Positions 24,778-50,300 of a stretch of DNA of 64,000 bases are shown here, one piece after another. The notes under the pieces were generated by a model. It was not told the DNA's origin and did no database searches. It saw only the letters and a program-made list of their open reading frames with translations. Numbering within the stretch: the first letter of the stretch is position 1; every line of letters begins with the position of its first letter. Source of the DNA: Geosiphon pyriformis uo1 (lineage: Eukaryota > Fungi > Glomeromycota); the NCBI GenBank assembly GCA_016748015.1, contig JAAOMT010000778.1:129176-193175 (forward strand), in the 5' to 3' direction. The translations under genes were made by a program, and so were the position numbers.

Positions 24778-26329
24778 ATGAGTGATTATTCATATCTGTC
24801 ACAATAATCAAAAGAACACTTTAAAGCATACAACAAAAACAATCTAGACTTTATTGAACTTAATTCTTTGCCCCTCTGCTTGATTTGTTTCCCCATTGAA
24901 GAACAATCCAGCAGACAATTCCAAGACTTTTGGAACTGGTTCCTGAATGAGCATTCAGCTGAAATCTACACAGCTTATACAACTTATTACTTTGACCAAG
25001 CTTATTTTGAAGACAACTTTGAAGAAAAAAACAACAGTATCAATCAGCTCTTATATTCTACAACCTTTGAACAACAGCCTCCTGATCTTGAATATCTGAA
25101 TCATCAAATTTACATTTGGATTGCTGACCATTAATCAATAGTAACTCCCTTTGAAACAGAAGAAAAAAGCTACCAAACAGCCCCTATTTTTGATCTCTTC
25201 TTAAGTGAATCAGAGCACTTCACACAAACAGTTACCCCTAAATCAATAGCTAATGACCCCATGTAAACAAACATTCTGGCCACTCTCCAAGATATACAAA
25301 CTGCTCTAAAAGAAGAAACAATACCCCACTACCACTATTTAGAGATGATACACAAGATCCAATTGAATAATTGAATGATTTTGAAAGAGCTGCCACAGCC
25401 AACCAGTATGATGAAGAATACAAGTTCCAAATCGTTGATGGCTACCTTCAAGGCTCTCCTGCTACCTGGTTCTCACAGGAAACTGATGCTAATGCTCATC
25501 AAAGAATCATTAGATGAATGCCAGCAAATGCCGGAGAAAACAACACTTCTTTCACAACCCAGTTTGAAAACAAGTTCAGAACTCCAATCTTGATATCCAA
25601 ATAGTACATGGAATTAGAAAGAAGAACTCAAGGCCCTGGTGAAATTGTAACTGAATATGCTAAAGCAATCAGAAAGTTAATCAAGCATGTAGACTCTAGA
25701 AGAAATTGGACAGAAGAGCAAAAGATTCATTCCTTCACAAAAAAATTGAGAACCAATTTATCTTATGCTCTTTGCCTCTTTTGGCCCTGAAAGACAATCC
25801 TACAATAAACATGACCATTGAACTTGCCCAATGAATTGAAGACAACCAAAAAATACATTTGGGATCTATATTTCTAGTTTTTGCTCTTGCTTCTGTTATG
25901 GTTCTTGCTCCTTAAATGGCTGCTGTCTCTTTTGCTGCCCAAACTCAAGATTCAAATGAACAATTAATTGATAGACTCACAGCCAATCTTGCCTGGTTAT
26001 TAAAACCTTTGGCACAAGCAGTTAGAGATAACCAACAACTACAAAGAACCAGATATGAACCACATTTTAATTAGCCCCAGCAACTTCCTTATCAAAAACA
26101 GCAAAATCATGGTCCTTCTGTATGTTATAGATGTGGATTAACTGAACATTTCTCAAGAGATTGCAACAATCTTCCTTTATCTCCTCCAGTTCCCAAAAAT
26201 AATGACAATTAAAACAATAGACCCATTAACAATAATGCTCTCAATCAAAGACCCAACCATACCAACATCAATTTCTTTGGAGAGGATCCTCTAGTTGAAG
26301 CCACAGTCTATCAGTCTTTAAACTGATAG
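24778..26329 (+). pseudogene. Family B gag (copy 1)
   Basis: ATG 24778; ELERRTQGPGE.VTEY capsid motif; knuckle CYRCGLTEHFSRDC. Stops and a frameshift present. Confidence 0.85.
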
Positions 26330-27702
26330 GTGCACTTTCAAAGAGTGAGAATGCAAGCCAACCAGAAAAAAATCCCTTTTTTGCTTTTAACTTAACTGAT
26401 AATAATCATAACATGGATGAATTAGCAATCAACACTTTTGAATCAACCAGAAAAAAGAAGAAAGCCAAGGTTGATTTCATTCTAGATCCTAACAAAGCCT
26501 CAACTTCCACTGCTGATAACAATGAGCCACCAAAAACCAAAGTTTTTAAGAACCCTCCAAAGTTAAAATTCCCAAAAATTGTACAAAAATTTGGACCTTA
26601 TTCTGTTGTCAAAGATCTCATAAAAACCCCAGCACACATTACCTTTGGCCAGTTAATGACCCATCTACAGTTCAGAAAAAATCTCTACAAATCTCTAATT
26701 CCCAAAAAGAAAACACCAAAGACCAATAAACACTCTTGTTAAGCTGGATTTACTGACAACAACAATGTCACTCCTCTAATTTGCAAAGCACAAGTGGCTG
26801 GTTACTTCATTGACTTGATCCTAGACAGTGGATTATCTGTTAGTGTAATTGCCAAACACTTCCTTAAAGCAATTGGCAGAAAAATTGATGAGCCTTCCAC
26901 TCGACCAATAACCAATATACATGGTGACAAGAAGAAAGATCTGGGCATTGCCAAAGCTATTTCTGTTCACATCAATGGCATCAGTATAGAAACTGACATA
27001 AAAGTTTCTGAAGCTAAAGAATACACCATTATTGTTGGCAATAAGTGGCTCAAGAAAGCAAAAGCCTTACTCGACTATGAACTTTGTAAGCTAATCATAA
27101 GATATGGTGAAAAATCCATTGTGGTTAAATATCACTATTGGACAACTCCTCCAGCAACCAAACAAAATCAAGAAGATGAGCAATCAGAGGAATCAGATAA
27201 TGAAGAGAGTGATAAAAAAGATGAATAAGAAAAACAAGAAGAAACTGCTGAACTCACATATACCATTTTCACCAACAATGGCAGGCCACTAAACAATATT
27301 AAAGCTGATAGAAAGGGAATCATTATGAATGGCAAGCTGATCTGCTGGCCCTACTATGATATCTTTAGAAAAACCTTTGACCAAAAACCTGGCAAGAAAG
27401 CCAAGTATTATTATTGGTGATATGGTTCTTGTGCCCAGTGCTGGTGCAACCAACCCTTGTATTCTCCAAGTGATGAATGCAAATCATACCTGATCTATTA
27501 CAAAGATTGGGAACCAATCAGTTTGATACCTAGAGAAGAATTGAAAGAATTCCAAAAATCCTTTGAAAATGAACCACCTGAGATCCAATCACTAGTTGTA
27601 GAACAAAGAGAATCCTCTTCAGAAGAAAAAAAAATAAACATTGAAAATTTGCTGACTAGAAACAGCCCAATTATCTCAAAAGAAGGTAATACTCCTGGAT
27701 GA
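26317..27702 (+). pseudogene. Family B pol, 5' part (aspartic protease + small Cys cluster)
   Basis: LILDSGLSVS and IIVGNKWL protease motifs. Interrupted by element E. Confidence 0.85.
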
Positions 27703-28597
27703 TATTACTCATAGAAATATAGGGAATATATATTAGCATAGTTATTAGCCAATCAGAAGTAAACATAGTAAATGTGGAATTCCAGGATTCCTCGCAGGAA
27801 TTGCAAGATTCCAGAAATTACAGGATTCTCATGAGGAATTGCAGGATTCCAGAATTCTAGGATTCCTCTCAAAAAGAATTACAGGATTTCTGTTATGAAG
27901 AATTGAGGAATTGAGGAATCTCAATTATGTATATATAGCAGTAATATTAGAAGCTGAAAAAAGCAGACTTCTCAGTTTAGATTTCATCTAGACAACCTTT
28001 CAAACACAATAAATAACTATTTGGTATCACAAACTTAATTCCACTATTAACACTCCATGTAGATAGTAATTGATACTTAAACACATTGGAACAATAGCTC
28101 TTGATCATGGCTATTGATGAGATACTGACTTGCAAAATTACCTTGGCTTATTCATGATTTTCTTTTATTCTTTTCTTTATTTTATTTTATTTTGATTTTA
28201 TTGTTGTGCACTAATTGGTTAAATAAAGTGCTAGATTACTGACATTAAAAATTGCCTGGTAAAAGACCTCTGTGAGAGGGTAGGACATGTACAGAAGATA
28301 TGAAATACTTACCAGAGAATTGCTGGCCATCACGCCGAAAGAAGAATTGACAGAATTGCGATTCTGGGAAGCTATGAATAAAACAACTATTGAATCTCTG
28401 TCCATTATACAAAAAACTCAAACCAAAACCTTCAGATACAAAACCTTTAGATTAATAACATCAACGTGAATAACTTTTAGCACCAAGTTACAGATTTGTT
28501 ATTTGATTCAACACCCCAAATACTCATTCATAACATTTGGTGCTCCCTGTGAGGTATAATCCTACAGAGAACCCACATCAACAATTCCATCCAAAAA

Positions 28598-31500
28598 TGA
28601 CAGAATCAGAAAACATCAGAGCAAACCATCTAGGATTTGTGAAATTTTTATTTCAATATTACTGTCAACATTTGGGATTAACCCATAATCACATATCAGC
28701 AGAATCAGCTTTTAATTTTTACGTCAACAAAAAAATTGCTTATCTGTTGGAAACATCCATGAATATTGAATCAGCAAGAGAAACTTTTTACAATGAATTA
28801 ATTCAAAACACCAGTCTACTCACAAATCATAATTTCACATCTATCATTACTAAGATCAACAAAGAAATTGAACACCACATACAGCAAAGATACCCAATTA
28901 CTTACACAAGTAAAGGCAAAGAAAAACTACAAACACCAGCAGTAACACCTCAAAGGATACAACCACCCACTTGGAAAAAAACTAGAGTTGAGTCCCCAAA
29001 CAACCCATTCTACCACTATACTCCTGAAAGTGCCATCAATATATTATCAACAGACGCATCTACATCAAATGCAACATCAACATTTAAATGTTTCTCATTT
29101 CAAAGTAAACAAAAGAAAGAGGATTTACTAGGACCATACAGCGAGTATTTTGAAAGATTTAAATCTCAATCGCCAACGCCATCAGGATTTTGATCACCAC
29201 CACCTTAACCAAATTTCGGAATTGTAAGTCCATAGAAAATTACTGAATTGAAAGAAGAACAAGAAGTAGAAGAAGAAGAAGAATCTGAGGATCACGAATT
29301 TACTTACTAAAACCCGATTCTAGAAAACCCAGAAAGTGAAACTTCAAACTTTTAAATCCAGCCAAATTTAAACAATCAAGAAAATGACACTCCGAATATT
29401 CAAACACCACCAAATCAGAATAATCCAAACTCCAAAGTAATTAATCAATACTTACCTCTAGTTATTATCATCGATCAACCACCTGTTGAACCAATTGGCC
29501 AGCCCATCCAACTACAGAACTAGCAAAATCAACAACCACCACCAGTACTGCCTCAACAACAATAACAACTTTCACTACTACAGCAACAACAAATGGCTTA
29601 TGCATCCATCACAAAACTCAACAAATTCAATGGTAAAGAAGACAATGCCCAAGTCTGGTTAAATGACGTAGCCAAAGCCATTACAGCCAATAATTGGGAT
29701 GATGCTAGAGCGATGCAAGCAATCCCTTATTTTCTTCAGAATACTGCTGATGCATGATATCAAAGTCTTGCTGTCAAACCCCAAAATTTTAATGGATTCA
29801 AAACTGAATTCTTGTGGTACTTTAGCAACAATAATAGTATCAACAAATTAACCAACACCTTTACAATGATCAGACAAGAAGACACTGAAGTAGTCACTAC
29901 CTACTTGGGATGCTTCCATAGAAATCTATGCCAAATATAAGCCATCCAAGCCAACTATTTCACAGCACCACAGATTTTAAATCAATTTATTAGAGAATTG
30001 CATAGTAGCATCCTACAACAAGTACGTCCAATGCATCCAGTGGACCTTCCAATCACAGTTACATATGCCAGAGATTTTGAAGCAGCTGAATTAGAAGCTA
30101 ATTACGCTCAAGCTGTAAATCTAGCAATGAATAGATCATCTGAATTGGATTCCAAATTGAAGCAATTCAGTGATTCAATTAATCAGAAATTAGAGGAATA
30201 CTTAGCTGACAATCGCATAATTTATCAATCTCCTCAATAGTGTAATAATCAGGGAAATGTGAATTGTTTCCAAAATTAGTCACGTCTATCATTGTCATCC
30301 AATCAGTCATGGCAGCCAGAGATGTGCATCTGCCACAACTGTGGTAAACAAAGGCACATTAAAGCCAACTGCCATACTTATAGCAATTCACGATTGGGAA
30401 ATCAATATAGAAACTCTGATTGCCGGTTCTAGATTCTGAACTATCACCCGAATCAAGACCAATACCAACCCACTTACCTGCTTATGACACACCAACCAAT
30501 TTATTAACTGCCAGTTTATCAACTACAGTTACAAGCAATTTATCAGGTGCAGCCACAAGTAATATATCAACCACAGCCACCAGCAATCTATCAAACACCC
30601 ACCATTTAAACACTACCAGCAAACCCAGCTCAAATGACATTAGGAAACCCAAGATTGAGGATTACCCAAAACTGGAAATTGGCAATAGTTGTACATCAAC
30701 CAATCCCCAGCTCTTTTCACCAACAATCAGGATCTCATCAGTGGAATTTGGGCACCAGTCCCACCCAAAACCCGAATTCTCAACACTATTTAAGCCTCCT
30801 GGTAACTCCAGAAGATGTCACATCCAGCAATCCGGAAATTAAACAACAACAACTACCTACCAATAATATTCTATCTGCTACAATCACCAAAAATAAATCT
30901 TTAGATGCCATCTTTCCATTCGAACTCGAAGAATTGTCAAATGTGCTATTATTTAGTGAAGCTGTACTTGAAGAGAAACTGATCACTACCATGTATACTG
31001 ATGCCAAGATTGATGGCCACTTCATCAAATTAATTCTTAACAGTGGTTCAGCAGGCAGCATCATCACATGACAACTCATGAATCAATTAGATTGTCAAGT
31101 TGATCATGCTACCAGTGCTAGGATTATCACCATGAATAGAGCCACCAAAACCCCAATTGGCAAAATCAATGACTTCCCAATTGAAGTCAATGGCATCATA
31201 GTATCCATCAAAGTTCTAGTGATGGAAGCCACCTAATATTAAGCTTTAGTTGGTAATGACTGGCTATCCAAAACCAATTTTATGCTCAATTGGATGACTC
31301 AAGAACTAGTACTCAGCCAGAATGATCAACACACACGAGTCCCAGCAATGTGTGGCCATTTCAAACCCAGCAATGTCAAGACAACAACACTGTTTATTGA
31401 ATTTGAGGAGGAAGAAAACAAACCAATGTGGAAAGCATATCAAGTATCATGGGCTAATGTTAATTACAACAAACTGCTGCCAATACTTTCCTGGGACAAC

Positions 31501-34500
31501 AACAACAATGGAAAAAAAAAACAAAGAGCAAAACTTATCTGGGAAACAGATAACCTGACTTGAACTGATAATGATGAACCGACATTGAGCTGGGAATGAG
31601 AAGAAAACAAAGAAAGCAATAAAGGGAAGAAAAAAGAGAAGGAAGAAAAAACAACACTTACCAACACTACTGCTCATAACTTATACACCTATTCATCACT
31701 ACCAACTAATTATTATTGACCAAAGCTGATATGTGTTAATTGTGGCAAGAAATTGTTGTCAATAGATGCATACTATGATGATGATGAGGAATATTTAATG
31801 GCCACCAGATTCTACTGCCACACATGCATCATAGAGTGCTTTGGATGACCGAAACAATGAGGAAAGTGGGACAATCAACTATGTCTTGCATGTGGAACTA
31901 TCTTACTTGACGAAGGAATGTGGAATAACATTCCTGAGTGGGGAGGAACATGTGACGAGACATGCCAATACACCATCTTGATAAATGACTAGATATGCAA
32001 GGGAACACCAATCAACAACACATGGAAAAAAGCACTACAATAATTGGAAGGGTACTTACATGATGAACATGAACTCTGGAGAATGACAAATGTGAAGGCA
32101 GAAGGTGTGACAACCAGTGAACTACTAGAAATCAAAAACAACCCCCTATCTCTGTTTGAACCTGAATACATCCTAACATTTGACATATTCGGCAACATTA
32201 AGGATGATTTGAAAGAATTCTACGAGCCCTATTAACGGTTGACACCTACTTGAGAAGAACAAGAGCAATGGTTGGAAGAAATAAACACTTGACTATGTAA
32301 CTACTGTTTAATTTCATATGACTTCCAATATTGTAATGAGTGTGACCTCATTTACAATCTGTCACCACACATAATTTACACAATCCCAGAGGAAGAGGAA
32401 TTAATCAGCAGCTGTGCATCAGAATCAGAATTGATTTTTAATCCTGATTCAAACTCCAACAATAATGATGACGAAAACACCAGTTTCAGTTCCATCCAAT
32501 ATGGTGATAACAATGACAATGATTCCAACTCAGATTTAAACCCCAATTCAGACTATGAACAATATATTGCACTCTCTGATCTCACCAAGAAACAGGAACT
32601 TAAATGGTTTAGTGATAATAATAAAGGTATTATGCCAGATTTGATCTGAGGTATTTAGGAAAAGAGGCCATTCAATTGGAACCACATTCACACACCTGCA
32701 TTGATTTGAAAATAGCACTGGAAATTCCAGCAACAACAATGGTTCAATTAACATCTAGGAATAGTCTAGCAAAAAGAGGGATAAATATAAGAGGAGGAAT
32801 AATTGACACAGGATATGTAAGAAATATCATCGCCATGCTACAAAACGACTCAGAAAAGGCCTATATCATAGAGCCAAATGAAAAAATAACACAAGCAATC
32901 TTCCTGTCTTTGGTTAAAATAGCTCAATTAGTATCTGTAGAAAACAGAAAAGAACTAGAGATAACAGCAAGAGAGATACAGAGATTTGGATCCATGAGTA
33001 GAATAGACATACTAGTCAATATGACAAAGGAAGAAATTATTGGCCAAGGAGAAATTATTTCAACAGGTCAAGCAATTTCCATTCCACCATATGACCAGTA
33101 CATATTAGCAATAGAAAGAAAGGTAAAAGATCAGGCACAAATTTTTGAAGTAGAAACAAGCTTTTGTGAAACAGAAGAAGTTGGACTTATCAATATACAC
33201 ATACCAGCCAAGAACCACAACCATATCAAAATTCCCATTTACAACAATACAGGAAATGTTGTAGAGATACCAAAAGAAACCACTCTCAGATATTTGACCA
33301 CTAAAATTGAAGATCAACCACCAAGCATCATTCCAGACTTTTCACAATTGTGTGGATATGTGAATATTATATTACAAACAATCTATGGACGGAATGAATG
33401 TTATTTGTTACAATCAGAGCAGCTAGAGCAAATGAACATAGAAAATCTAGATCCACTTCAACAGATGCAACTAAAGATGTTACTTAACAATTTTAATGAC
33501 ATCTTTGCCAGCAAAAACAAATTTGGCAGAACTGATATTATCCAACACCAGATCAAAACTGGAGATGCAATCCCAATCAAACAAAGAGCATACAGAATAG
33601 CACCAGCAAGCCATGAGATCATCTGTCAAGAGATTAATCAAATGCTTAACAATAGACTAATCCAATCATTAATGAGCTCATGGTTGTTACCAGTAGTACT
33701 TATCTGAAAGAAGAATGGAAAGATCAAATTTTGTGTAGACTACAGAAAACTCAATAGAGTCATTTATGGAGACAATTATCCAACTTCACAGATCCAAGAG
33801 TTATTCAATGCTTTTGAAGGAAACAAATGGTTTTCAACATTGGACTTGTATAGTGGTTACTGACAAGTAGCCATGGATCTAGCTGACAAAGAAAAAATAA
33901 CACTCACTATAAGAGAGAGAAACTTTGAATTTGAAATAATACCATTTGGCTTAACCAATGCCCCAGCAACCTTCCAATGGCTAATGGAAATTGTGTATAC
34001 TGGCTTATTGTGGAAATCAGTAGTTGTATACTTGGACAACACCAATGTATTCTCAAGAACATTTGATAATCATCTCCATCATCTTTAACAAATATTCAAA
34101 AGACTGCGATGAGCAGGGTTAAAGCTAAATACACCAAGTGCTTTTTTGGCAAAACAAAACTGAAGTTTCTGAGACATATAATCAGCAAAGACGGTATCAA
34201 GACAAACCCAGACAAGATAGAAATAGTAAAAAACTTTCCAGTGCCAACCAATGGGATTGAACTAAAATCATTCTTGGAATTTACAAGCTATTATCATTGC
34301 TTCATCAAAAACTTTTCTAAAATAGCTTAGCCACTTAACCATCTACAAACTAAGAACGTGAAATATAAATGGATGGAAATGCAACAAAAAGCTTTTGACA
34401 TTTTAAGAGGAAAGCTCATTCAAGCATCAGTATTGATCTATTCAAATCACAACAAACCATTTATCATTACTACTGATGCATTAGGTCAAGCATTGGGAGC

Positions 34501-36303
34501 AGTACTATCTCAGAAAGGACTGGATGAAAGAGAACATCCAGTAGCATTTGCCAGCTGAAGCTTAACACCAGCCAAAAAAAACTATGGAACACCAGAACAA
34601 AAACACTTAGCGATATACTGGGCAGTCATGGAATGGAAAGAATACTTGAGCCAGAAGTTTGAAATGTACACAGATCACAAAAGATTAACATTATTCCAAA
34701 AACAAGAATTTGGAGATAGAAGACAGTCAAGATAGAAAATGGCACTTGCACTATATAATTATACTATACATTATAAAAAGGGAAAAAACAATGGAAATGC
34801 TGATGGTTTGTTACAAATAAGACAAATCTAAACATTCCAATTCAAAAAATATAACAAAACCAAACTACATCCAACAACAACATAATAAAAGATAAACTCA
34901 CAAAAATATTAACAACTCAAGCATTATATAAATACTCAACAGTTCAAGGAGAAATTATCTTAAACAGAACAAAATAGTATCAAACAACAATCAAAATATT
35001 TTATCATCTACCAGAATATATTTTATTGGAAGAATAGAAAAGATTCAGATCAACCAACCAGAGTAATTACAGAACTGAAAAAAGAAACAATATTATTCAA
35101 CATGCATTCAAATCCAACAGCAGAACATTTTCATAAAGAGGCAACCAGGGAAAGAACCAGAAAGAGATACTATTGGCCATCAATGTATCCAGATATCATC
35201 TAATATGTGCAAAATTGTGATGCTTGTCAAAGAAGAGGAGGAACAAGACCCAGTGAACCATTGAGACCAATCAAAGTGGGACAACTATTTGACCGTATTG
35301 GAATCGATTTAGTCAGACCATTGACAATTACCAGCAGAGGCAACAGATATATTGCAGTAGTCATAGACTATCTTACTAAATAACCAGAAGCCAAAGCAAT
35401 TCAAAGAGTGAATGCAGAATCTGTTGCCAAATTCATCTATCAAGATTTGATTTGTTAACATAGATGTTCAAAAGAACTATTATTAGACTAAGAAACCCAT
35501 TTTGTGAATAGAACATTAGCAGAACTAAGCCAAAAATTTGGAATTAAAAGACCACTATCATCACCATACCATCCACAAACCAATGGATTAGTTAAAAGAT
35601 TTAATAGAATATTGTGTAAAGCAATAGCAAAACTCAGCCAAAAAAACCAGGACGAATGAGACTTGTTCATACCATCAGTATTATTTGCTTATTGGACAAT
35701 GAAGCAAGACACCACACAAGCAACACCATTTGAATTAATATACGGTAGAACAGCAATATTACCAGTTGAGATAGAGATTAACATATATCCAACTGAACCA
35801 ATAACAGAAAAGAATTTTCAAGAGACATTGTTAAGAAGAACATATGACTTAATAGAAACATTAGAAAACAAATGAAGAAGAGCAGCTGATAACATACAAA
35901 AGTCACAAGAGAAACAGAAAGAAAAACATGATAATCAACTACCAAACAAACCAGTTGAATTTAAGATTGAAAACAAAGTACTCTTATATTATACCAAAGC
36001 AGAAAAACAATGAAGTGAAAAATTTGACCCCAAATGAGATGAACCATTTCACATAAAAGAAATTCTAAAGAATAGAGCTTACAAATTAAGACTGGATAAC
36101 AAAATCTTAACCAAAGCAGCACATGGAGATTGACTGAAACTATATCACAACATCACATCACTATCCACCAGTAATATTCCACAATTAGAAGTACAGAAGA
36201 TACTAATCTAACCAGAGGAGATTCCACGAGATCTGGAACCAATTATCATTATTAACAACAACACATTAATTAATCCATCAAAAGAATATATAAAGACATA
36301 GTA
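28598..36303 (+). pseudogene. Family E gag-pol: capsid, knuckle, protease, Cys-rich domain, dUTPase, RT, RNase H, integrase
   Basis: CHNCGKQRHIKANC; LIL(D>N)SGSAGS; dUTPase GGIIDTGY; RT FCVDYRKLN, PFGLTNAPATFQ, YLD(D>N); RNase H TTDALGQALGAVLSQ; integrase H..H..CDAC, IGIDLV, YHPQTNGLV and a GPF-type tail. Confidence 0.92.
32620..33000 (+). pseudogene. dUTPase domain within family E pol
   Basis: Motif 1 partly deleted (..FDLRY), motif 2 SRNSLA, motif 3 GGIIDTGYVRNI, motif 4 EKITQAIF, motif 5 TAREIQRFGS. Confidence 0.88.
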
Positions 36304-36327
36304 GATGCAACAAGAAATATCAGAAAA

Positions 36328-36957
36328 ATGGAAATTACAGACAACATCCACTCACTAGCACAACAACTCTTTCAATTAATTCAACACCAAGAGATAAAAA
36401 TTACAATTAATCAACAAACCATCTGATATCAAGACACTAGAAAGACATTACCACATAGAACACAGAAGAAAACAGAAAATACTGTTGACAAAATCATGGC
36501 GAAAGTAAAATTAGCAATAAAAGAGTCAACAAAAGAGTCACTATATCAAAAGTTGACTAAAAAAACTTGGAATTGGTGAATACAACAATTTCCAAGAAAT
36601 TATTGTTATTTTTACTTGGGACAACATGTGAATATCCAGAATCTATATACAGATAAAACAAAGCAATTATTTGACACCAGAATACTACAACAATTAGAAC
36701 ATTTTGTGGAAAAGAACAACTTATTCACACAGACCTGAGCCATATACCAAATACACACAGCATTTCAGGATTGACCAGAAATCTTATTTAACAAAGCAAT
36801 GAACACGGTTACAAGTAATCAATTAGGAAAGATCACCAATGCTCAATTTGAAGAATTACAGACTCAAATAACACAAGTAATTCTCGAAAATGAAATTCAG
36901 GAAATACTTCAAGAAAGAGAATTAACAGAGTTAGATTTCAACAGAGCTCAATATTAA
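36328..36957 (+). pseudogene. Family E ORF3 (210 codons, unknown function) between integrase and PPT
   Basis: Single frame MEITDNIHSLAQQLFQ...FYLGQ...VTSNQLGKITNAQFEEL...AQY*. Broken only by four TGA codons (CGA/TGG-derived). Confidence 0.75.
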
Positions 36958-37791
36958 AAGGAGGGAATAATGTTACTTATAGAAATATAGAGAATATATA
37001 TTAGCATAGTTATTAGCCAATCAAAAGTAAATGTAGTAAATGTGGAATTTCAAGATTCCTTTCAGGAATTACAGGATTCCAGGAATTACAGGATTCTCAT
37101 AAAAAATTGCAGGATTTCAGAATTCCAGGATTTCTCTCAAAAAAAATTGCAGGATTCCAGGAATTCCAGAATTCCTGTTGTGAAGAATTGAGGAATTGAG
37201 GAATCTCAATTATGTATATATAACAATAGTATTAGAAGCTGGAAAAGGCAGACCTCTCAGTTTAGATTTCATCTAGACAACCTTCCAAACACAATAAATA
37301 ACTATTTGGTATCTCAAACCTAATTCCACTATCAACACTCCATATTAATAGTAATTGATACTTAAACATACTAGAACAATAGCTCTTGATTATGGCTATT
37401 GATAAGATACTGACTTGCAAAATCACCTTGGCTTATTCATGATTTTCTTTTATTGTTGTGCACTAATTGGTTAAATAAAGCACTAGATTACTAACATCAA
37501 AAATTGCCTGGTAAAAGATCTCTGCGAGAGGATAGGACATGTACAAAAAATACAGAATACTTACCAGAGGATTGCTGGCCATTATGCCGAGAGAAGAATT
37601 GACAGAATTGCAATTCTGAGAAACTATGGATAAAACAACTATTGAATCTCTGTCCATTATACAAAGAATTTAAACCGAAACCTTCAGATACAAAACCTTC
37701 AGATTAATAACATCAATGTGAATAACTTTTAGCACCAAGTTATGGGTTTGTTATTTGATTTAACACCTCAAATACTCACTCATAACAATGA

Positions 37792-40460
37792 ATTCATGTG
37801 ATACAACACACCATCACCACCAGAAAAACTTGCTTCATCCATCTAAAACTATATCAATCCAATCACTACAATAATGAATTCATCAAGAAAAAAATAAAAC
37901 GAATGAAAGATCTTGGATTCATACAAAAAACCAAGAGTGAATAGGCTTTTCCAGTTGTAGTGGTATCCAAGAAAGATGAAACCCTGCACTTCTGTGTTGA
38001 TTATTGCCAATTAAATGCCATTACTAAAAGAAACATGTACTCATTTCCCAAAATTGATGCAATGCTAGATCAATTCAAGAGTGCTGCTTTCTTCTCAACC
38101 ATTGATCTAATTGCTGGATTTTGGCAAGTAGAGATGAATCCAGAAAGTTGGAAGAAAACCACCTTCATAACCAAGTATGGCACCTATAAATTCACAGTTA
38201 TGCTTTTTGGTTTCATCAATGCTCCTCCCACTTTTCAATGCTTAATGGACAAAGTATTTGAATTAGTGAAAAAAAATTTTGTTCTGGTTTATTTGGATAA
38301 CATAATAATGTACTCAAAAATCTGGGATGAACATCTTGAACATTTGCAAAAAGTTTTTGACCTCCTTAGAAATGCTGGCCTTAAAATAAACTCAATCAAA
38401 TCTTTCTTTAGACAGCAATCAACCCAATTTCTTGGTCATCTTATTACAAAGAATGGAATTTTTCCTGACCCAGCCAAGGTTGAAAAAGTCCAGAACATTA
38501 GACAACCAATGAATGTTCATGAACTGCACTCTTTCTTTGGTTTGGTTTCTTATTATCAGAAATTTGTTAAGAATTTTTCCAAAATCACCTCTCCACTCAA
38601 TCAGCTACTTAGAAAAAATGTCAATTACCACTGGGGTACACATCAGCAGAAAGCATTTGAAACCCTCAAAGAAAAATTGGTTACAAAACTTATTCTCAAG
38701 CAACCTAATCTGAATCAACTTTTTATCCTTCATACTAATGTATCTGGTTATGAACTTGGTGCTGTCCTGTCACAAAAAGATGAAGATGGCAGAGAATATG
38801 CAATAGCATATGTCAGTAGAACTTTTACACCAGCAGAACAGAACTATTCAGTTACTAAGCAGAAATGCTTAGCAGTAGTCTGGACTATTAGTTACTGAGA
38901 TAAGTATCTCCTGGGGGTAAAGTTTTTGGTGGTAACAGATCACCAAGCTTTGGTTTGGTTATGCAACAAAAAGAAGCTGGAACATAAAAGAATAACTTGC
39001 TGGATACTCCACTTGGACAAATTTGACTATGACATTCAACATCATCAAAACGCCGATGCTCTTTTTAGACTTACCATCTAGTGACAGTACAACTACCTCA
39101 AACCAAATCAACCTAATTATTAGTAATTCTCTCACAACCAAACACAATAATAGACTTGGACAACTACTCTGCCTTAATGGAATTTTTGGGTAAAGAACAA
39201 TACCCACTGGAATACAATTGACAACAAAAAGAACATTTGTGCAAACAATTAAATTTCTATTTGATCTGCCAGAATCAACTATACAAAAGAAACAGAAAAG
39301 ATTCTGACCATCTCCAAAGAGTCATAAGATTTGAAGAAAGAGAAATTGTGATCTATAATATGCACACTGATCTATTAGCTAGACACTTTGGAAAAACAAA
39401 AACAATTTAGAAAACTCTAGCTTGCTATTATTGGTCTACCTTAGAAAAAGACATTGCTGAGTACATTAAAACCTGTGATACCTGCCAAAGAAGAGAAAAA
39501 CCCAATAGAAAAGAAAATATCTATTCAATCTCTGTTGGCCAATCATTTGACAGGATTGGTATAGATGTTGTTAGACTCTTAACAATAACTCTTAATAGCA
39601 ACAGATACATTATTACAGCTACTAACTATCTTACAAAGTGGGTAGAAGCAAGAGCCACTTCAGACCAAACAACAGTCTCAATAGCCAATTTCATTTATGA
39701 AGATATCATATGCCATCATGGCTGCCCCAGAGAACTTTTATTTGATAGAGGAAAAGCTTTTCTCAGTACACTGGTTAAAGAACTTTGTAGAAAAATGGGA
39801 ATATGTCACAAACTTTCTTTCCCTTATTACCCCCAAACAAATTACCTAATAGAATATTTTAATAGAACACTATGTGAAACTCTAGCCAAAACAAGTAAAA
39901 AAACAAACTTATGAGACAAAGTATTGCTTTCAGCTTTGTTTGCTTATAGAACTGTGAATCATGACATAATAAGTTATGAACCTTTTTATCTGTTCTATGA
40001 ACACATGGCAATACTACCAATAAAAACTGACATTAAGACAATACCCTTTAAAGAGATCACAATAGCAAATTACAAAAACATTTTGCAAAGAAGACTTGAT
40101 ATCATTCTTGACTTATTGGTAGAAGCACAAATAGTTGCTTTTGAAAAGATAAAACAGTTTTAAGAAAAGCTTAAAAAGAAAAAAACCTATAAAACACTTT
40201 CTTTAAGTGTTGGTGACTTGGTATTAGAATACTATTCAAACAGAGACAATGTCTATGATAATAAATTCTTTAGCCAGTAGAAAGAACCCTTTATAGTCAA
40301 CAAATTTTTGAACAATGGTTTTTATATTCTTCAAGATCAATCTGGAACAATCTTTAATGATCGACCTGTTCACGGCATGCAACTCAAGAAATATTACAAA
40401 TGACCTGATTGGTTGCCTGTTGTGATAATACTGACTCAAATGATCAACAAAAATCAAGTA
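37792..40460 (+). pseudogene. Family B pol, 3' part (RT, RNase H, integrase), copy 1
   Basis: FCVDYCQLN, FSTIDL..GFWQV, YLD(D>N), HTNVSGYELGAVLSQ, IGIDVV, ALFAYRT. Confidence 0.92.
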
Positions 40461-40505
40461 TAAATAAATGCACTATTCCCAAAACAGAGGTATTTTCAAA
40501 TTGAC

Positions 40506-41162
40506 ATGAACAATTATTTTCTGGATCAAAACATTCAAAATGCCTTCTATACTCTCCATAAGTATTGGATTAAAAACTATTTAAATATTACTTTGACCAT
40601 TGGAAAACAGACCACAATAACTGATAGCAGTGGAACACATACTGTTATTAGACCAAAGAAAACAACTACCAAAAGAGAAAGAATTGGTAGCAAAATGAAT
40701 AAATATCTGTTAGAAAATATAACAGCAGCAATACTTGTACCCTCTATCATACTTGGAAAAACAATTAAAGAAATTTTACTCATAGACAAAAACTTGTTAT
40801 ATAGAAGACAATTAGAGCTCTATGGTCGCCTTGGTGAAATCATAGATGACATGAAGCTCATAAAGAAAACAACTTTAGAAATACAGACAGAAATTTTGGG
40901 CATTATATAATTAGATATTCCAAGAGTTTTAACCATTACTAAAAGAACCAAAACTCTAATACAAAGATTTGGTTTCTTGAATACAAAACTCATTTCACCT
41001 CAAGTATTATATACTCTATCTACAAAAGACTTCAATAAATTAGTTAGCTTTGAATTAGATAAAACTTTTCAAATAGACTACACTATAAATAGCTTGATTT
41101 TGCCAGAGCTCAATCTCTTTGGAGAGAATAATGTTATGATTGAGACTTATACTTTTTATTAA
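40506..41162 (+). pseudogene. Family B ORF3 (219 codons, unknown function), overlapping PPT and the first 31 nt of the 3' LTR
   Basis: ORFs 40506-40910 and 40977-41162 are one frame with a single CAA>TAA-type stop. Identical 657-nt length in three copies. Confidence 0.8.
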
Positions 41163-43352
41163 TTATCACATGTATTAGCCACTGATGTTATATGATTAGT
41201 CACACTATTTTTAGAAAGTGATCATTGACCTGATCAATGACCTGACCATTGACCTGACCATTGACTTGATCATTGATCTGATCATTGACCACTTTTGATA
41301 ACTATATAAGTGATGAATTTCTTAGCTATAGAAAAGCATGTAATAACAAGCATCTGAATAATCAAGAATAAATAAAATAACAATTTTCATCTTAATTCTT
41401 TTCTTATTGCTAATTTTTCTTTCCCTACCTTCAAGTATCTGAACATCTTAAAGATAAAAGATTACTTGTTGGCCTTTTCCTGATGTATATAATTGTAGCA
41501 TTTGAAGATTATTTGAATAAACATGACTGAAAAGCACAAGTTAATATCTGATATTGAATTCTAAGAACGCTGACATGAGACATAGAATTATACCAGTGGT
41601 GATCAATTGTTGACAGTATGGACTATCCCTCTACCTTTATATTCTCCAGTTACCTTTGAAAAAAATAGCAACTGAGATATTTTATGAAACTGATCTCACA
41701 CATTGAATCCATACTTATTCAATTTACTCTTTAAAGTTGAATTCTCCTTTGATTATTTCCATCACCCTACAATCTTGTTCTTTTTTACTATCCATTAGCT
41801 TGTTACTCCAATCTGTAATAACATAATTATTATTTGGCTTATTAACTGCTAGTGACTATTTTTTATAGTAAAAAATTCTAAATTAATCAAAATATTTCAA
41901 TATTTAAATCTTACTTCTTAATCTGTTTGTGCTAATATAATTAAAAATAAAGTCATAAAACTCTATATCTTGGATAAATAAAAATTAAGAATAAATACTA
42001 TTTTTATTATAAAATATATCTTTTTTTATTCATACTTATAATATGATAAATATATTTAGGTATTATCAAGTCTAAATTTTTTTTACATTAAATTTTTGAA
42101 CATCTTTCAATAATAAAACTTTTGTTTTTATTATTACTTATTATATTAATAACAATTTGGATCTTTAATAAACAATAATTGATTTTGAATTAATAAGTAA
42201 ACAGCATAATAAAATAAATATTGTAAACAGATTTTTTAAAATATTAAAAGATTATAAAATTACATTAAAAATACATATATATATTCTTACATAAATTTGA
42301 GTTAGTTAATAGTCAATGATAAAATCAATATATCATATAGCATATTAATATTATCTAAAATTCAAAGTTATTATAATGCTCATATTATTAAAAATCATAT
42401 TTTTTCAATATTAGTTTAAGTTGATTTTTATTATTGCTTCAAAGCTGAATTTTTGGCATTAGCATTATTTAAGGCTCAATATTATTATAGTGCTTATATT
42501 ATTAAAAACTATATTTTTTTAATATTAGCTTAAGTGGTTTTTATTATTGTCTTAAGCCAAATTTTCAGCCAAAAAAGTTATAAAAGAGTTATATACACTT
42601 TTTTTTTATACAAGTTTATCATTAATTTTATTAGTTATAATCTAATTTTTTTTAACAGCTTTTTGTTATTATCTTTGATAATACTGTAAATAATAGTACT
42701 TTTATAAAAAAGTTAATAAGAAAATTAAAAGAAAAAAATATTCAATAGAACTTAAAAGATCTTTGATTTTAATGCTTTAATTATATTCTAAACTTGGTAA
42801 TACAAACAGCTTTAGATAAAATAAAAGATAATGTTTCTAAGATATTTATTAAAAATCCAAACCAAATATATTTATCTAAAATTTTTTTAATGTAAATTTT
42901 GAATAAATTAAAGATTAGAAAACTTAACTCTGCAATTTGTATTTTATTTTAATATTTTAAGCTTTTTGAACATATCTATAATATATGTCAAATTAAATAC
43001 TATAAATCCATTTTGAATTGTTTCATCCAGTAAAATTTTATTTATAATATAATTAAGAATAGATTATTTTTTAAATTGACAAGTTGTTTATTTCTGATTT
43101 CATATATTTTAAATACAAAAATTCTAACTGTAAATTTATAAACATTAAACATTTTTATTAATACTTATATTGATTTTTATCAATATGTTATTTTATATAA
43201 TTAGTGGGCTGTCTTTAATAAAATTGATAAATTTCTTGAATTATTTAAAAATATTATGGTTAAAATATTAGCCAGTTCAAATAATACTGTTTTTTTGATT
43301 ATTTCTCTCTTTAATATTATTTTTAATTATATTGAAGACATAGTTAATAATA

Positions 43353-45980: not shown

Positions 45981-46652
45981 TGTTACAGATTAGAGTAACA
46001 AGCTAACAAATAGCAAGAGAGAACAGAATTGTAGGGTGATAAAAGGAATCAAAGGGAATTCAACTTCAAAGAGTGAATTGAATAAGTATGGATTCAATGT
46101 GTAAGATCAGTCTCATAAAATATCTCAATTACTATACTTTTCAAGGATAACCGGGAAATCTGAAAGTAGAGAGATAGTCCATACTGTCAACAAATGATCA
46201 CACCTAGTACAATTCTATGCCTCATGTCAGTGCTCTTAGAATTCAATATCAGGTATTAGATGTACTCTTCAGTTACGTTTTATTCAATAATTTTCAAATG
46301 CTGCAATTACACATTTCAGAAAAAGTGTAGAAAATAACCAACAAGTAATCTTTTATCTTTAAAATATTCAGATACTTAAAAATAGGGAAAGGGAAATTAG
46401 CAATAAGAGAAAGATTGAAATAAAAGTTGTTATTTTATTTATTTAATTTCCTTGATTTCTTCATGTTTTTCTACAGCTAAAAGATTCATTGCTTATATAG
46501 CTGTCAAAAGTGGTTAATGATCAGGTCATTGATCAGGTCAATAATCAGGTCAATAATCAGGTCAATGATCAGGTCATTGATCAGGTCAATGATTACTTAC
46601 TAAAAATAGAGTGGCTAATTTATGTGATATCAGTGGCTAATACATGTAATAA

Positions 46653-47309
46653 TTAATAAGAAATATAAGTTTCAATCATAACATCATTTTCTCCAAAGAA
46701 ATTGAGCTCTGGCAAAATCAAGCTATTTATAGTATAATTTATTGAAAGGGTTTTATCTAACTCAAAGTTAACTAGTTTGTTGAAATCTTTTGTGGATAAA
46801 GTGTATAGCACTTGAGGCAAAATGAGCTTTGTATTCAAAAAACCAAATTTTTGTATAAAAATTTTGGCTCTTTTTGCAATGGTCAAAACTCTTGGGACAT
46901 CTAATTATATAATGCTCAAAATTTCCACTTGTATTTCAGAAGTTGTTTTCTTCATGAGTTTCATGTCTTTTATGATTTCACTAAGGCGACCATAGAGTTC
47001 TAGTTGTCTTCCATATGACAAGTTTTTGTCTATGGGCAAGATTTCCTTAATCATTTTTTCAATTGTGATAGAAGATATAAGTATTGCTGCTGTTATGCTT
47101 TCTAGCAGATATTTATCCATTTTGCTATCAATTTTTTCTTTTCTGGTAGTAGTTTTCTTTGGTCTAATAACAATATGTGTTCCACTGTTATCAGTTATGG
47201 TGGTTTGTTTTTCAATGGTCAAAGTAGCATTTAGATAGTTTTTGATTCAATACTTATAGAGAGTATAGAAGGCATTTTGAATGTTTTGATCCAGAAAATA
47301 ATTGTTCAT
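46653..47309 (-). pseudogene. Family B ORF3 (copy 2)
   Basis: ORFs 46905-47222 and 46653-46886 are homologous to 40506-41162. Confidence 0.8.
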
Positions 47310-47349
47310 ATTGATTGAAGATACCTCTGTTTTGAGAATGGTGCATTTA

Positions 47350-50300
47350 TTTATACTTGATTTTTGCTGGTCATTTGAGTCGGTATTACCATAACAGACA
47401 ACCAATCAGGTCGTTTATGATATTTCTTGAGTTGTGTACCATGAACAGAATGATTATTAAAGATTGTTCCGAATTGATCTTGAAGAATATAAGAATCATT
47501 GTTCAAAACTTTGTTGACTATAAAAGATTCTTTTCATTGGCTAAAAAAATTATCACCATAAACATTGTTTGTCTGAATAGTATTCTAGTACCAAATCACC
47601 AACACTTAAAGAAAGTATTTTACAGATTTTCTTTTTATTAAGCTTTTCTTAGAACTGTTTTATTTTTTTAAAAGCAATTATTCATGCTTCTACTAAGAAG
47701 TCAAGAATGGTATCAAGTCTTCTTTGCAAAATGTCTTTGTAATTTCCTATTGTGATCTCTTCAAAAGATATAGTTTCAATGTTAGTTTCTATTGGTAGTG
47801 TTGTCATGCATCTATAAAGCAGATAAAAAGATTTATAACTTGTTATGTTATGATTTACAGTTTTATAAGCAAACAAAGCTGAAGACACTACTTTGTCCCA
47901 TAAGTTTGTTTCTTTACTGGTTTTGGTTAGGGTTTTACATAATGTTCTATTGAAACGTTCCACTAGGCCATTTGTTTGAAGGTGATAAGAGGAGGAAAGT
48001 TTATGATGTATTTCCATTTTCCTGCAGAGTTCTTCAACCAGTGTACTGAAAAAAGCTCTTCCTCTATCAGATAAAAGTTCTTTGGAGCAGCCATGACAGC
48101 AAATGATATCTTTATAAATGAAATTGGCTATTAAGACTGCTGTTTGGTCTGAAGTGGCTCTTGTTTTTACCCACTTTGTAAGATAGTCAGTAGCTGTGAT
48201 AATATATCTGTTGCCATTAAGAGTTATTGTTAAAGATCCAACAACATTTATACCAATTCTGTCAATGGTTGACTAACAGAGATTGGATGGATATCTTCTT
48301 TTCTATTGGATTTGTCTCTTTTTTGGCAAATGTCACAGGTTTTGATGTATTCAGCAATGTTTTTTTCTAAGGTAGGCCAATAATAGTGAGCTAAAGTTTT
48401 CTGTATTGTCTTTGTTTTTTCAAAGTGTCCAGCTAATGGATCAGTATGCATATTGTAAATTACAATTTTTCTTTCTTTAAATCTTATAACTCTCTGGGGG
48501 CAGTCAGGATTTTTTCTGTTTCTTTTGTATAATTGGTTCTGGCAGATCAAATAGAAATTTGATTGTTTGCATAAATGTTCTCTTTGTTGTCGAGTGTAGT
48601 CTGGTGGGTATTGTTCTTTACCCAAAAATTCCATTAAGACAGAATAGTTGTCCAAGTCTATTATCATGTTTGTTTGTGGGGGAGTTACTAATAATTAAGT
48701 TGGTTTGATTTGAGAGGTTGTATTGTTACTGGATGGTAAGTCTAAAGAGAGCGTCGGCATTTTGATAATTAGCTCCTTTGCAGTGTTGAATGTCATAGTT
48801 GAATTCATCCAGATGAAGTATCCAGTGAGTTATCTATTTATGTTCCAGATTCTTTTTATTGCACAGCCAAACCAAGGCTTGATGATCTGTTACTATTAAG
48901 AATTTGGCATCAAGAAGATATTGGTCCCAATAGCTAGTAGCCCAAACTACTGCCAAGCATTCTTGTTCAGTTACTGAATAGTTCTTTTTCACTGGTATAA
49001 GAGATCTACTGACATATGCTATAGCATGTTCTTTGCCATCTTTATTTTTTTGTGAGAGTACAGCACCAAGTTTATAACCAGATGCATCAGTGTAGAGAAT
49101 AAAAGGTTAGTCCAGGTCAGGTTGCTTAAGGATTGGTTTAGTAACAAGTTTTTCCTTCAGGATTTCAAAGGCTTTTTGCTGGTATGTACTCCAGTGGTAA
49201 TTGACATTTTTCCTAAGTAGCTGGTTGAGAGAAAAGGCAATTTTAAAGAAATTCTTAATGAATTTGCGATAGTAAGAAGCCAAACCAAGAAAAAAGCATA
49301 GTTCAGAAACATTCATTGGTTGTCTAATGTTTTGGACCTTTTTAATTTTAGCTAGGTCAGGAAAGATTCCATCTTTTGTAATAAGATGACCAAGGAACTA
49401 GGTGAATTGACATCCAAAAAAAGATTTGATTGAGTTGATCTTAAGGCCAGCATTTCTAAGCAGGTCAAAAATCTTTTGCAAATGTTCAAGATATTCATCC
49501 CAGGTTTTTTAGTATACCATTATATTATCCAAGTAAACTAGAACAAAGTTTTCTTTCATTGATTCAAACATCTTGTTCATTAGGCATTGAAAGGTGAGAA
49601 GGGCATTTGTGAAACCAAAAGGCATAACTGTAAATTCATAGATGTCATACTTGGTGATAAAGGCAGTTTTTTTTCTGCTTTCTGAATTCATTTTTACTTG
49701 CCAGAATCCAGCAGTTAAGTCAATAGTTGAGAAGAAAGCAGCACTATTGAATTTGTCTAACATTACATCAAAATTGAAGAGTAGGTACATATCTCTTATA
49801 GTAATGGCATTTAATTGGCAGTAGTTGACACAGAAGTGTAGGGTTCCACCTTTCTTGAATACCACTACAACTGAGAAAACCCATTCACTCTTAGTTTCTT
49901 GTATGAATCTAAGATCTTTCATCCTGTTTATCTCTTTTTTGATAAACTCATCATTATGATGGTTGAATTGATAAGGCTTCAAATATATGAGGCAAGTTTT
50001 TCTGGTTGTGATGGTGTGTTATATCACATGGGTTTGTCCAGAAGTATTACTTTCTTTTGAGATAACTGGGCTGTTTCTAGCCAATAGATTTTCAATGTCT
50101 ACTTTTTTTTTTTCTGGGGAAGGTTCTCTTTGTTCTACAACAAGTAATTGGATCTCAGGTGGTTCATTTTTAAAGGACTTCTGTACTTTTTTTATTTCTT
50201 TCCTGGATATCAAACTGATTGGTTCCCAATCTTTGTAATAGATTAGGCAGAATTTGTATTCATTATTTGGCGAATACAAAGATTTATTGCATTAGCATCT

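What the first reader, a model, noticed from the sequence alone, without database searches (positions are those of the whole stretch)
36328..41162. Conserved uncharacterised third ORF after integrase in two divergent Gypsy families
Seen: E has a 210-codon ORF (36328-36957). B has a 219-codon ORF of identical length in three copies (40506-41162, 47309-46653, 15065-15721) that runs across the PPT into the LTR. They share a pattern by eye: N-terminal I.ITI..QT; central (F/L)Y(GR)LG(Q/E); A.R/RA..I...F; C-terminal ISPQVLYTLSTKDFNKL vs VTSNQLGKITNAQFEEL. There is no signal peptide or TM segment, so it is not a classical Env. Inference: a lineage-wide soluble accessory protein in the env position, for example an anti-silencing factor, transactivator or nucleus-to-nucleus movement factor in coenocytic hyphae. 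This is the best candidate for an undescribed system here.
Basis: partly seen in the sequence, partly recalled or inferred. Interest (0 to 1): 0.8.

Follow-up and report, generated by a model that had tools for sequence, protein, structure and literature searches.

The report
Fungal retrotransposon's self-promoted third gene
Several Gypsy jumping-gene families of a fungus carry, after their integrase, an extra gene for a small soluble protein that matches no known family; it likely has its own promoter and is predicted to switch on its own element, which would be a virus-like control circuit in a fungal transposon.

Summary
The third ORF is real, but all four window copies are broken by stop codons; intact 209-aa (E) and 218-aa (B) copies exist among hundreds of Geosiphon pyriformis gene models. 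E's ORF3 belongs to a wider family: about six Geosiphon subfamilies and three unnamed metagenome proteins at 18-66% identity, one of them intact in the same post-integrase, PPT-crossing position (L001). It folds confidently (pLDDT 81) with no Pfam, PDB or clear fold match, and has no membrane segment. B-E homology fails every standard test, but an end-to-end profile test gives z about 3.5 (likely, about 0.7). B's ORF3 shows purifying selection in one of three pairs. New here: a TATA box lies 41-47 nt before the ORF3 start in both families, and in B the LTR's 12-bp repeat motif recurs just upstream of it (rank 1 of 40 windows); E shows no such recurrence. Best reading: an internally promoted, likely DNA-binding activator of the element's own LTR, working like foamy-virus Tas (0.4). 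Expression and binding are untested. The scan noted similar ORF3s in other genomes. Verdict: new variant of a known kind.

The parts
36328..36957 (+). ORF3 of family E (209 codons; 4 internal stops in this copy). Most other copies have a second in-frame ATG 10 codons upstream that overlaps the integrase stop.
   Evidence: position 36300 differs in most contigs; divergent relatives start at the Met aligned with 36328
40506..41162 (+). ORF3 of family B, copy B1 (218 codons, 1 internal stop); crosses the PPT and ends 31 nt inside the 3' LTR
46653..47309 (-). ORF3 of family B, copy B2 (2 internal stops)
15065..15721 (+). ORF3 of family B, copy B3 (5 internal stops, no ATG) in a 3' fragment 14987-16440 without integrase
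36287..36294 (+). Consensus TATA box 41 nt before the E ORF3 ATG (candidate internal promoter)
   Evidence: background 0.59 per kb in E
40459..40466 (+). Consensus TATA box 47 nt before the B1 ORF3 ATG, overlapping the integrase stop; kept in B2 (starts 47355, minus strand) and B3 (15019)
40306..40458 (+). Integrase 3' end enriched in the B LTR repeat motif (copies at 40359, 40400, 40439): candidate response element of the internal promoter
   Evidence: rank 1 of 40 non-overlapping windows in B1 (19 hits vs next 4) and B2 (12 vs 3)
41220..41291 (+). Tandem array of the 12-bp unit in the B1 3' LTR, just upstream of the LTR TATA box; same array in the 5' LTR at 24076-24195 (10 copies, consensus TGATCATTGACC)
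37041..37210 (+). Different tandem array (8-10-bp units) in the E 3' LTR upstream of its TATA box; same in the 5' LTR at 27772-27919
27703..37787 (+). Element E: LTRs 27703-28535 and 36971-37787 (90.8% identical), PBS at 28538, gag, dUTPase, RT-RNase H-integrase, ORF3, PPT 36956-36970; TSD ATGA; nested in B1
23989..41823 (+). Element B1: LTRs 23989-24725 and 41132-41823 (91.4% identical), interrupted by E between protease and RT; PPT 41121-41131
45981..53713 (-). Element B2: LTRs 53713-53011 and 46683-45981 (87.6% identical), TSD CTAC

Best explanation
These Gypsy retrotransposons carry a conserved third gene after integrase for a soluble, mostly helical protein of about 210-240 residues, which is likely made from its own internal TATA promoter and is predicted to act in the nucleus as a DNA-binding activator of its own family's promoters. 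Shown: the gene, its position, its spread over many families, its lack of a membrane segment, a TATA box 41-47 nt before its start, family-specific repeat arrays in each LTR, and in family B the recurrence of that repeat motif beside the internal TATA box. Inferred: a short mRNA runs from the internal promoter to the 3' LTR; the protein enters the nucleus by its basic linker, its helical C-domain binds the repeat motif first at the internal promoter (positive feedback) and then at the LTR array, raising gag-pol transcription in a methylating genome. Fast divergence of the protein together with the arrays would keep each family's activator private. B's ORF3 is likely (about 0.7) a distant member of the E-type family.
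For: Real gene: intact copies (20 of 120 listed B hits are exactly 218 aa; P0125 209 aa); 0 of 12 B1-B2 indels fall in it; synonymous excess B1 vs B2, 38 of 85 differences vs 27-29 expected, z 2.5-2.9 (RT z 4.9-5.6, LTR z -1.3 to 0). Family: representatives 18-66% identical with invariant N145, F160, L167; leave-out profiles find divergent members at z 9.5-17; L001 has RT-RNase H-integrase, a spacer, an intact ORF3 and the PPT/LTR. It diverges faster than integrase: E vs H 55-64% in the integrase C-terminus, 27% in ORF3; E vs L001 50% vs 27%. AlphaFold model pLDDT 80.6. TATAWAWR at -41 (E), -47/-46 (B1, B2; also B3), -126 (L001, its only match in 3.1 kb) against 0.3-0.6 per kb. B repeat motif upstream of that TATA box: rank 1 of 40 at k = 5, 6, 7, 8; 0 and 16 of 5000 triplet shuffles reach it. 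Weak DNA-binding leads: Spo0J (Z 4.0, rmsd 3.8, 86 aligned), KorB (Z 3.4, 4.6, 85), ParB (Z 3.3, 3.1, 59) among the top 50 fold rows; C-domain aligns in register with DUF3102 (E 0.01) and DUF1016_N (E 0.06). Precedent for the logic: foamy-virus Tas (PMC3798896, passages).
Against: E shows no enrichment of its LTR repeat upstream of its TATA box (rank 5-16 of 54); L001's rank 1 at k 5-6 is confounded by an AT-rich spacer and vanishes at k 7-8. The B motif was first seen by eye, B1 and B2 are not independent, and the sites lie in integrase coding sequence. Fold Z-scores under 5 are ordinary for helical bundles and the top rows are unrelated proteins; hhalign probabilities to DUF3102/DUF1016_N are 1-4%. 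Selection is significant in 1 of 3 B pairs (others p 0.06-0.20). B-E homology: BLASTP, hhalign and hmmsearch fail; against the E-close subfamilies alone the custom test gives z 0.6-0.8; the B model is poor (pLDDT 41). Several members are neutral or acidic overall (pI 5.4-7.0). The upstream ATG overlapping E's integrase stop allows stop-restart translation without a second promoter.
Confidence: 0.4

Rival explanations
1. ORF3 is a sequence-specific anti-silencing factor: it would bind the family's tandem repeats and lower DNA methylation, as VANC does for Arabidopsis VANDAL transposons, rather than recruit the transcription machinery.
For: Family-specific tandem arrays and a fast-diverging protein match the VANC pattern (PMC5735166, abstract); the elements are CpG-depleted (0.16); in B the decayed forms of the unit point to a CpG inside it (inference).
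Against: The arrays sit directly upstream of the LTR TATA box like enhancers, not across the element; no VANC family appeared in the Pfam scans.
Confidence: 0.15
2. ORF3 acts on RNA: it would bind the element's genomic RNA to export or protect it (like Rev or the CERV protein of C. elegans Cer1) or suppress RNA silencing; the LTR arrays would then bind host factors.
For: Soluble, small, with a basic linker; CERV is a precedent in a Gypsy element (PMC10309623, abstract); a separate promoter suits any early regulator; E lacks the motif recurrence.
Against: Does not explain why B's LTR motif recurs at the internal TATA box; no RNA-binding fold stood out.
Confidence: 0.2
3. B and E acquired unrelated ORFs at the same place; the shared pattern comes from similar length, composition and helical periodicity. 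(Independent of the function question.)
For: All standard tests fail; unstable alignment; best B copy 7.0 bits, reached by 9 of 2000 shuffles; no signal against the E-close subfamilies.
Against: End-to-end profile score z 3.4-3.7 without the PPT-coded tail (0-1 of 250 shuffles, 0-4 of 250 block shuffles, three gap settings), above all 47 real-protein control slices; BLASTP B vs P0315 E 0.002 over 121 colinear residues; same order of predicted helices and strands; same position, length and TATA spacing.
Confidence: 0.3
4. ORF3 is a structural or targeting cofactor made by stop-restart or read-on from pol: it would join the particle or the integration complex and steer insertion, or move particles between nuclei of the coenocyte.
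For: In most E copies an in-frame ATG overlaps the integrase stop; these elements show no chromodomain hit, so another targeting part is conceivable.
Against: B and L001 have no such overlap (45-nt and about 320-nt gaps); all three have a TATA box before the ORF; no membrane segment.
Confidence: 0.12

Closest known systems
Sense additional ORFs between pol and the 3' LTR (aORF-3S, 'env-like') of plant and insect LTR retrotransposons (PMC7264820, first third of the text read)
   Same: Position, orientation, presence in most copies of a family, unknown function.
   Different: No transmembrane segment; fungal host; no sequence match to any Pfam family; candidate internal TATA promoter rather than splicing.
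Foamy-virus Tas/Bel1 with its internal promoter (PMC3798896, passages)
   Same: Works-like model: 209-308-aa, poorly conserved activator gene near the 3' LTR, made from an internal TATA promoter, with virus-specific response elements at both the internal promoter and the LTR.
   Different: No sequence or fold relation found; here no env, no Bet; binding and activation are untested; motif sharing seen in B only.
VANC anti-silencing proteins of Arabidopsis VANDAL DNA transposons (PMC5735166, abstract)
   Same: Element-encoded protein diverging along with family-specific tandem repeats.
   Different: DNA transposons of plants; no similarity found; arrays here lie in the LTR promoter.
Non-envelope ORF3s of bdelloid rotifer LTR retrotransposons (PMC5408684, abstract) and Oikopleura Tor env from an internal promoter (PMC4402516, passages)
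   Same: Third ORF in Gypsy-type elements, some with dUTPase (as E); internal promoter for a third gene exists in Tor3b/4b.
   Different: Those ORF3s are esterases, exonucleases or membrane glycoproteins; this one has no enzyme or Env signature.
CERV of C. elegans Cer1 (PMC10309623, abstract)
   Same: Novel nuclear regulator encoded by a Gypsy-type element.
   Different: Made from a spliced mRNA and acts on RNA export; no similarity tested directly beyond the Pfam/PDB scans.
DUF3102, DUF1016_N (YhcG N-terminus) and ParB/KorB/Spo0J DNA-binding domains
   Same: Helix with aromatic-I-G, then helix-turn-helix ending in R-L-x-x-x-F, aligned in register; weak fold rows. The resemblance was first recalled, then tested.
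   Different: Scores are far below significance; prokaryotic; no N-terminal helix-hairpin module.

Membership tests
Ty3/Gypsy LTR retrotransposon (host elements) | Two LTRs, PBS, PPT, TSD | tested here: met
   (TSD clear for E and B2, not for B1)
Ty3/Gypsy LTR retrotransposon (host elements) | Order protease-RT-RNase H-integrase | tested here: met
aORF-3S (sense additional ORF) | Sense ORF between pol and 3' LTR | tested here: met
   E, B1, B2, L001; gene models fused behind integrase: B 35 of 141, E 8 of 155, H 20 of 46; none for subfamilies F, G, I (0 of 4, 16, 22)
aORF-3S (sense additional ORF) | Kept in most copies and under selection | tested here: met
   selection significant in 1 of 3 B pairs
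Env / env-like | Transmembrane segment | tested here: not met
   highest 19-residue hydropathy 0.27-1.37 in 10 of 10 proteins; model is a soluble bundle
Env / env-like | Signal peptide | tested here: inconclusive
   no hydrophobic N-terminus by hydropathy; no dedicated predictor run
Foamy-virus Tas/Bel1 | Sequence similarity to Tas | tested here: not met
   no such family in Pfam scans of 4, 18 and 10 proteins
Foamy-virus Tas/Bel1 | Internal TATA promoter upstream of the gene | tested here: inconclusive
   TATA consensus present in E, B and L001; no transcript data
Foamy-virus Tas/Bel1 | Response elements at both the internal promoter and the LTR | tested here: inconclusive
   shared motif in B, not in E
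Foamy-virus Tas/Bel1 | Sequence-specific DNA binding and activation | not testable with these tools
   needs EMSA and reporter assays
VANC | Binds tandem repeats and causes methylation loss | not testable with these tools
   arrays present; activity untested
DUF3102 / DUF1016_N / ParB-type HTH | Significant profile or fold match | tested here: inconclusive
   hhalign E 0.01-0.06, probability 1-4%, with small alignments of 14 and 10 sequences; VIA Z 3.3-4.0
E-type ORF3 family (for B) | Significant similarity to the family profile | tested here: inconclusive
   standard tools fail; custom end-to-end test z 3.4-3.7

The most novel reading that the evidence does not exclude
Glomeromycotina Gypsy elements are complex retroelements with a foamy-virus-like two-promoter switch: an internal promoter makes a new kind of DNA-binding activator that recognises a family-private repeat at both the internal promoter and the LTR, and protein and repeat co-diverge so that each family runs its own circuit in a shared, multinucleate cytoplasm.
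Probability: 0.28. Interest if true: 0.85.

Novelty: new variant of a known kind. Interest (0 to 1): 0.6.

Why it matters
Extra ORFs after pol are common in LTR retrotransposons but their function is mostly unknown. Here one comes with a confidently folded, unnamed domain, many diverged natural variants and, in family B, a named candidate DNA target, so the question can be tested directly. LTR elements cover 41.2% of the G. pyriformis genome (PMC11952901, passage); an element-encoded activator or anti-silencer would help explain how they expanded under methylation, and would give a set of orthogonal protein-DNA pairs. It also shows that hundreds of 'hypothetical' Geosiphon gene models are pieces of this transposon gene.

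Tried and rejected
No genome held for the window, so copy-wide dN/dS and context checks were limited to window copies, gene models and contig tables. Direct B-E comparisons failed; a BLOSUM profile-profile global test gave p 0.21 and 0.03. Pfam and PHROGs: no family above cut-off; PDB sequences: only importin-5 at E 0.43. ESM Atlas: weak unrelated leads for B including DUF6192, nothing for E; DUF6192 could not be tested properly (two poor fragments). Foldseek PDB and BFVD: 0 matches at E <= 0.001; VIA best Z 4.7; this does not show that the fold is new; the N-terminal module was not folded alone. The B model (pLDDT 41) gave only generic helical rows. Homodimer prediction gave no answer (score 0.01). 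No RNA holder listed, so expression and splicing were not examined. Viral contigs and phages: no relative. CCAAT boxes near the internal TATA boxes are too common to count (3.5-5.8 per kb). No clear splice acceptor before the ORF by a simple YAG listing. The shuffle control for hhalign timed out. I recall a widespread Glomeromycotina transposon-associated family with a similar motif; no call retrieved it, so it stays an unverified lead. P0307 (a repeat protein) was dropped as a false hit. Gene models with internal deletions (likely mis-predicted introns over stops) were mostly left out of alignments: A2 uses 33 of 120 B hits, A7 uses 18 sequences.
Full report
Setting. The window is a transposon-rich stretch of a fungal genome. 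All 120 listed relatives of each ORF are named 'hypothetical protein [Geosiphon pyriformis]', so the window likely comes from that species or a very close one (inference). No whole genome was held. Self-comparison and LTR borders show element E (27703-37787) nested, with a 4-bp duplication, inside element B1 (23989-41823), a second B copy B2 (53713-45981, minus strand) and a 3' fragment B3 (14987-16440). Domain order is Ty3/Gypsy; E also has a dUTPase. B and E are far apart: RT 35-46% and integrase core 45% identical. LTR pairs are 88-91% identical and CpG is depleted (0.16 vs 0.77 in the neighbouring host gene), so these copies are old and decayed.

The observation. The four reading frames are at the stated coordinates but none is open: 4, 1, 2 and 5 internal stops, and B3 lacks its ATG. 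Intact versions exist elsewhere: 126 proteins among 269 candidates for B, of which 20 of the 120 listed are exactly 218 aa, and 125 among 164 for E, with P0125 at 209 aa. The shared B stop at codon 135 falls on a hypermutable codon. B's frame crosses the PPT and ends 31 nt into the LTR; E's ends just before the PPT. No protein of 10 tested has a membrane-like segment.

Is it a gene under selection? None of 12 indels between B1 and B2 falls in ORF3, and contig tables show no common indel in either ORF (one sample, possibly the window's own source). Nei-Gojobori dN/dS is 0.27, 0.38 and 0.31, against 0.48-0.70 off-frame, 0.36-0.59 antisense, 0.50 for the LTR and 0.22 for RT. With a null that keeps the mutation spectrum, B1 vs B2 shows a synonymous excess (38 of 85; z 2.5-2.9), the two pairs with B3 do not reach significance (p 0.06-0.20), RT gives z 4.9-5.6 and the LTR about 0. 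Stronger evidence is the family's depth.

The wider family. A profile of B plus E over 1.84 billion representatives gave 107 hits; a second search from the divergent ones gave 66 among 2404 candidates, 64 named Geosiphon and 2 unnamed. Together they define about six Geosiphon subfamilies and three unnamed metagenome proteins (P0309, P0320, P0315), 18-66% identical. All divergent hits resemble E, none B. Leave-out profiles recover the divergent members at z 9.5-17. Locus L001 holds RT-RNase H-integrase, a spacer of about 320 nt, an intact 230-aa ORF3 and a PPT-LTR junction that the ORF crosses, as in B; its integrase is 54% identical to E's and 38-43% to B's; its host is unknown. Gene models join ORF3 behind integrase in B (35 of 141), E (8 of 155) and H (20 of 46); for subfamilies F, G and I that position was not shown. 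ORF3 diverges about twice as far as the integrase C-terminus. No named relative outside Geosiphon was found, so 'lineage-wide' is not shown.

Are B and E homologous? BLASTP, hhalign and hmmsearch say nothing significant, and MAFFT registers wander. However, B aligns colinearly with P0315 over 121 residues (E 0.002), and an end-to-end profile score of B against the diverse family is z 3.6 (1 of 400 shuffles, 0 of 400 block shuffles, above all 47 control slices of real proteins). Without the PPT-coded tail it stays at z 3.4-3.7 over three gap settings; each half alone gives z 3.2 and 2.5; against only the E-close subfamilies it is z 0.6-0.8. Predicted secondary structure runs in the same order, though the B model is poor. 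With the same place, length and TATA spacing I put homology at about 0.7. The test is my own script and was one of several tried.

Structure. AlphaFold with 18 sequences gives P0315 pLDDT 80.6, pTM 0.65: a helix and beta-hairpin, a disordered basic linker, then a helical domain (80-220). Pfam, PHROGs and PDB sequences give nothing above cut-off. Foldseek finds 0 matches at E <= 0.001 in PDB and BFVD; VIA's best Z is 4.7. Among the weak rows, three ParB-type DNA-binding domains span most of the C-domain (Z 3.3-4.0). A recalled likeness to DUF3102 and DUF1016_N was tested with small alignments: in register but weak (E 0.01 and 0.06; the two DUFs score E 0.001 against each other). These are leads only. 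The linker is basic and in 4 of 10 proteins carries a basic-x-PY motif of the kind I recall as a PY nuclear signal; B and E have a basic stretch without it.

Cis elements (new). A strict TATA consensus lies 41 nt before the E start and 46-47 nt before the B start in all three B copies, and 126 nt before the L001 start, against 0.3-0.6 per kb inside the elements. Each family's LTR has a tandem array of its own short unit just upstream of the LTR TATA box: a 12-bp unit in B, 8-10-bp units in E. In B the array's words recur in the 153 nt upstream of the internal TATA box: rank 1 of 40 windows in both B1 (19 vs 4) and B2 (12 vs 3), at four word lengths, with 0 and 16 of 5000 triplet shuffles reaching it. 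E's words are not enriched there (rank 5-16 of 54), nor are E's words in B or B's in E. The motif was noticed by eye before testing and lies in integrase coding sequence.

Mechanism. The anatomy fits a two-promoter switch: a short mRNA from the internal promoter makes a nuclear protein that binds the family's repeat at the internal promoter and at the LTR. Foamy viruses work this way with Tas, whose response elements are not conserved between viruses (PMC3798896, passages); no homology is claimed. Tor elements of Oikopleura show that a Gypsy-type element can drive a third gene from an internal promoter (PMC4402516, passages). I give the whole mechanism 0.4; the gene being a real accessory gene 0.95; the internal promoter about 0.6. 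Rivals: VANC-like anti-silencing (0.15; PMC5735166, abstract), an RNA-level factor like CERV (0.2; PMC10309623, abstract), a particle or targeting cofactor (0.12). The shared B motif could equally bind a host factor.

Novelty. Sense ORFs between pol and the 3' LTR are a known class (PMC7264820, first third read), as are non-Env ORF3s in rotifers (PMC5408684, abstract). Searches for a description of this family found none; passages of PMC11952901, bioRxiv 2021.03.30.436303 and PMC3248453 do not mention such an ORF under the terms searched. The library lacks many papers; the original Geosiphon genome paper (recalled) did not appear, and supplements and the curated AM-fungal TE library were not seen and may hold these families. 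Earlier scan notes describe similar soluble ORF3s in other genomes; sequence look-ups found no overlap with them. Verdict: new variant of a known kind, an unnamed protein family with a testable target; interest 0.6.

Noticed in passing
window:32625-32990: Element E carries a dUTPase (PF00692, E 2e-12) in pol before RT; B has none detected. One gene model of subfamily I also joins dUTPase to ORF3 (P0354).
   Followed up: partly
window:28597-28900 and about 24800-25100: Both families have an unnamed domain ahead of the gag capsid region (no Pfam hit for E's); the B and E versions did not match each other by tblastn.
   Followed up: partly
window:36943-36976, 41104-41137; L001:3089-3122: A GAGCTCAAT word is conserved just before the PPT in E, B and L001, read in different frames of ORF3: a likely cis element that shapes the proteins' C-termini.
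   Followed up: partly
window:28538-28554, 24731-24750: E and B share a similar primer-binding site, which by recall resembles the 3' end of elongator tRNA-Met; not tested.
   Followed up: no
window:16667-17612, 22821-23718: Two LTRs of an E-related family; the second keeps a PPT and the last codons of an ORF3-like end upstream.
   Followed up: partly
window:12300-14865: LTR and gag fragment of a third family, whose LTR translation matches the tail of subfamily G gene models (P0319), joined directly to fragment B3.
   Followed up: partly
window:53184-54561: A 679-bp, 100%-identical tandem duplication over the B2 5' LTR: recent duplication or assembly artefact.
   Followed up: no
window:21179-22142, 19438-20087: An 87-bp satellite-like array (about 10 copies) and an inverted related array.
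   Followed up: no
window:5067-9334: LINE-like element (ORF1, endonuclease-RT pieces) by reading the translations; not searched.
   Followed up: no
window:59998-63214: Host gene exons that by recall look like GCN1 (HEAT repeats); used only as a control.
   Followed up: no
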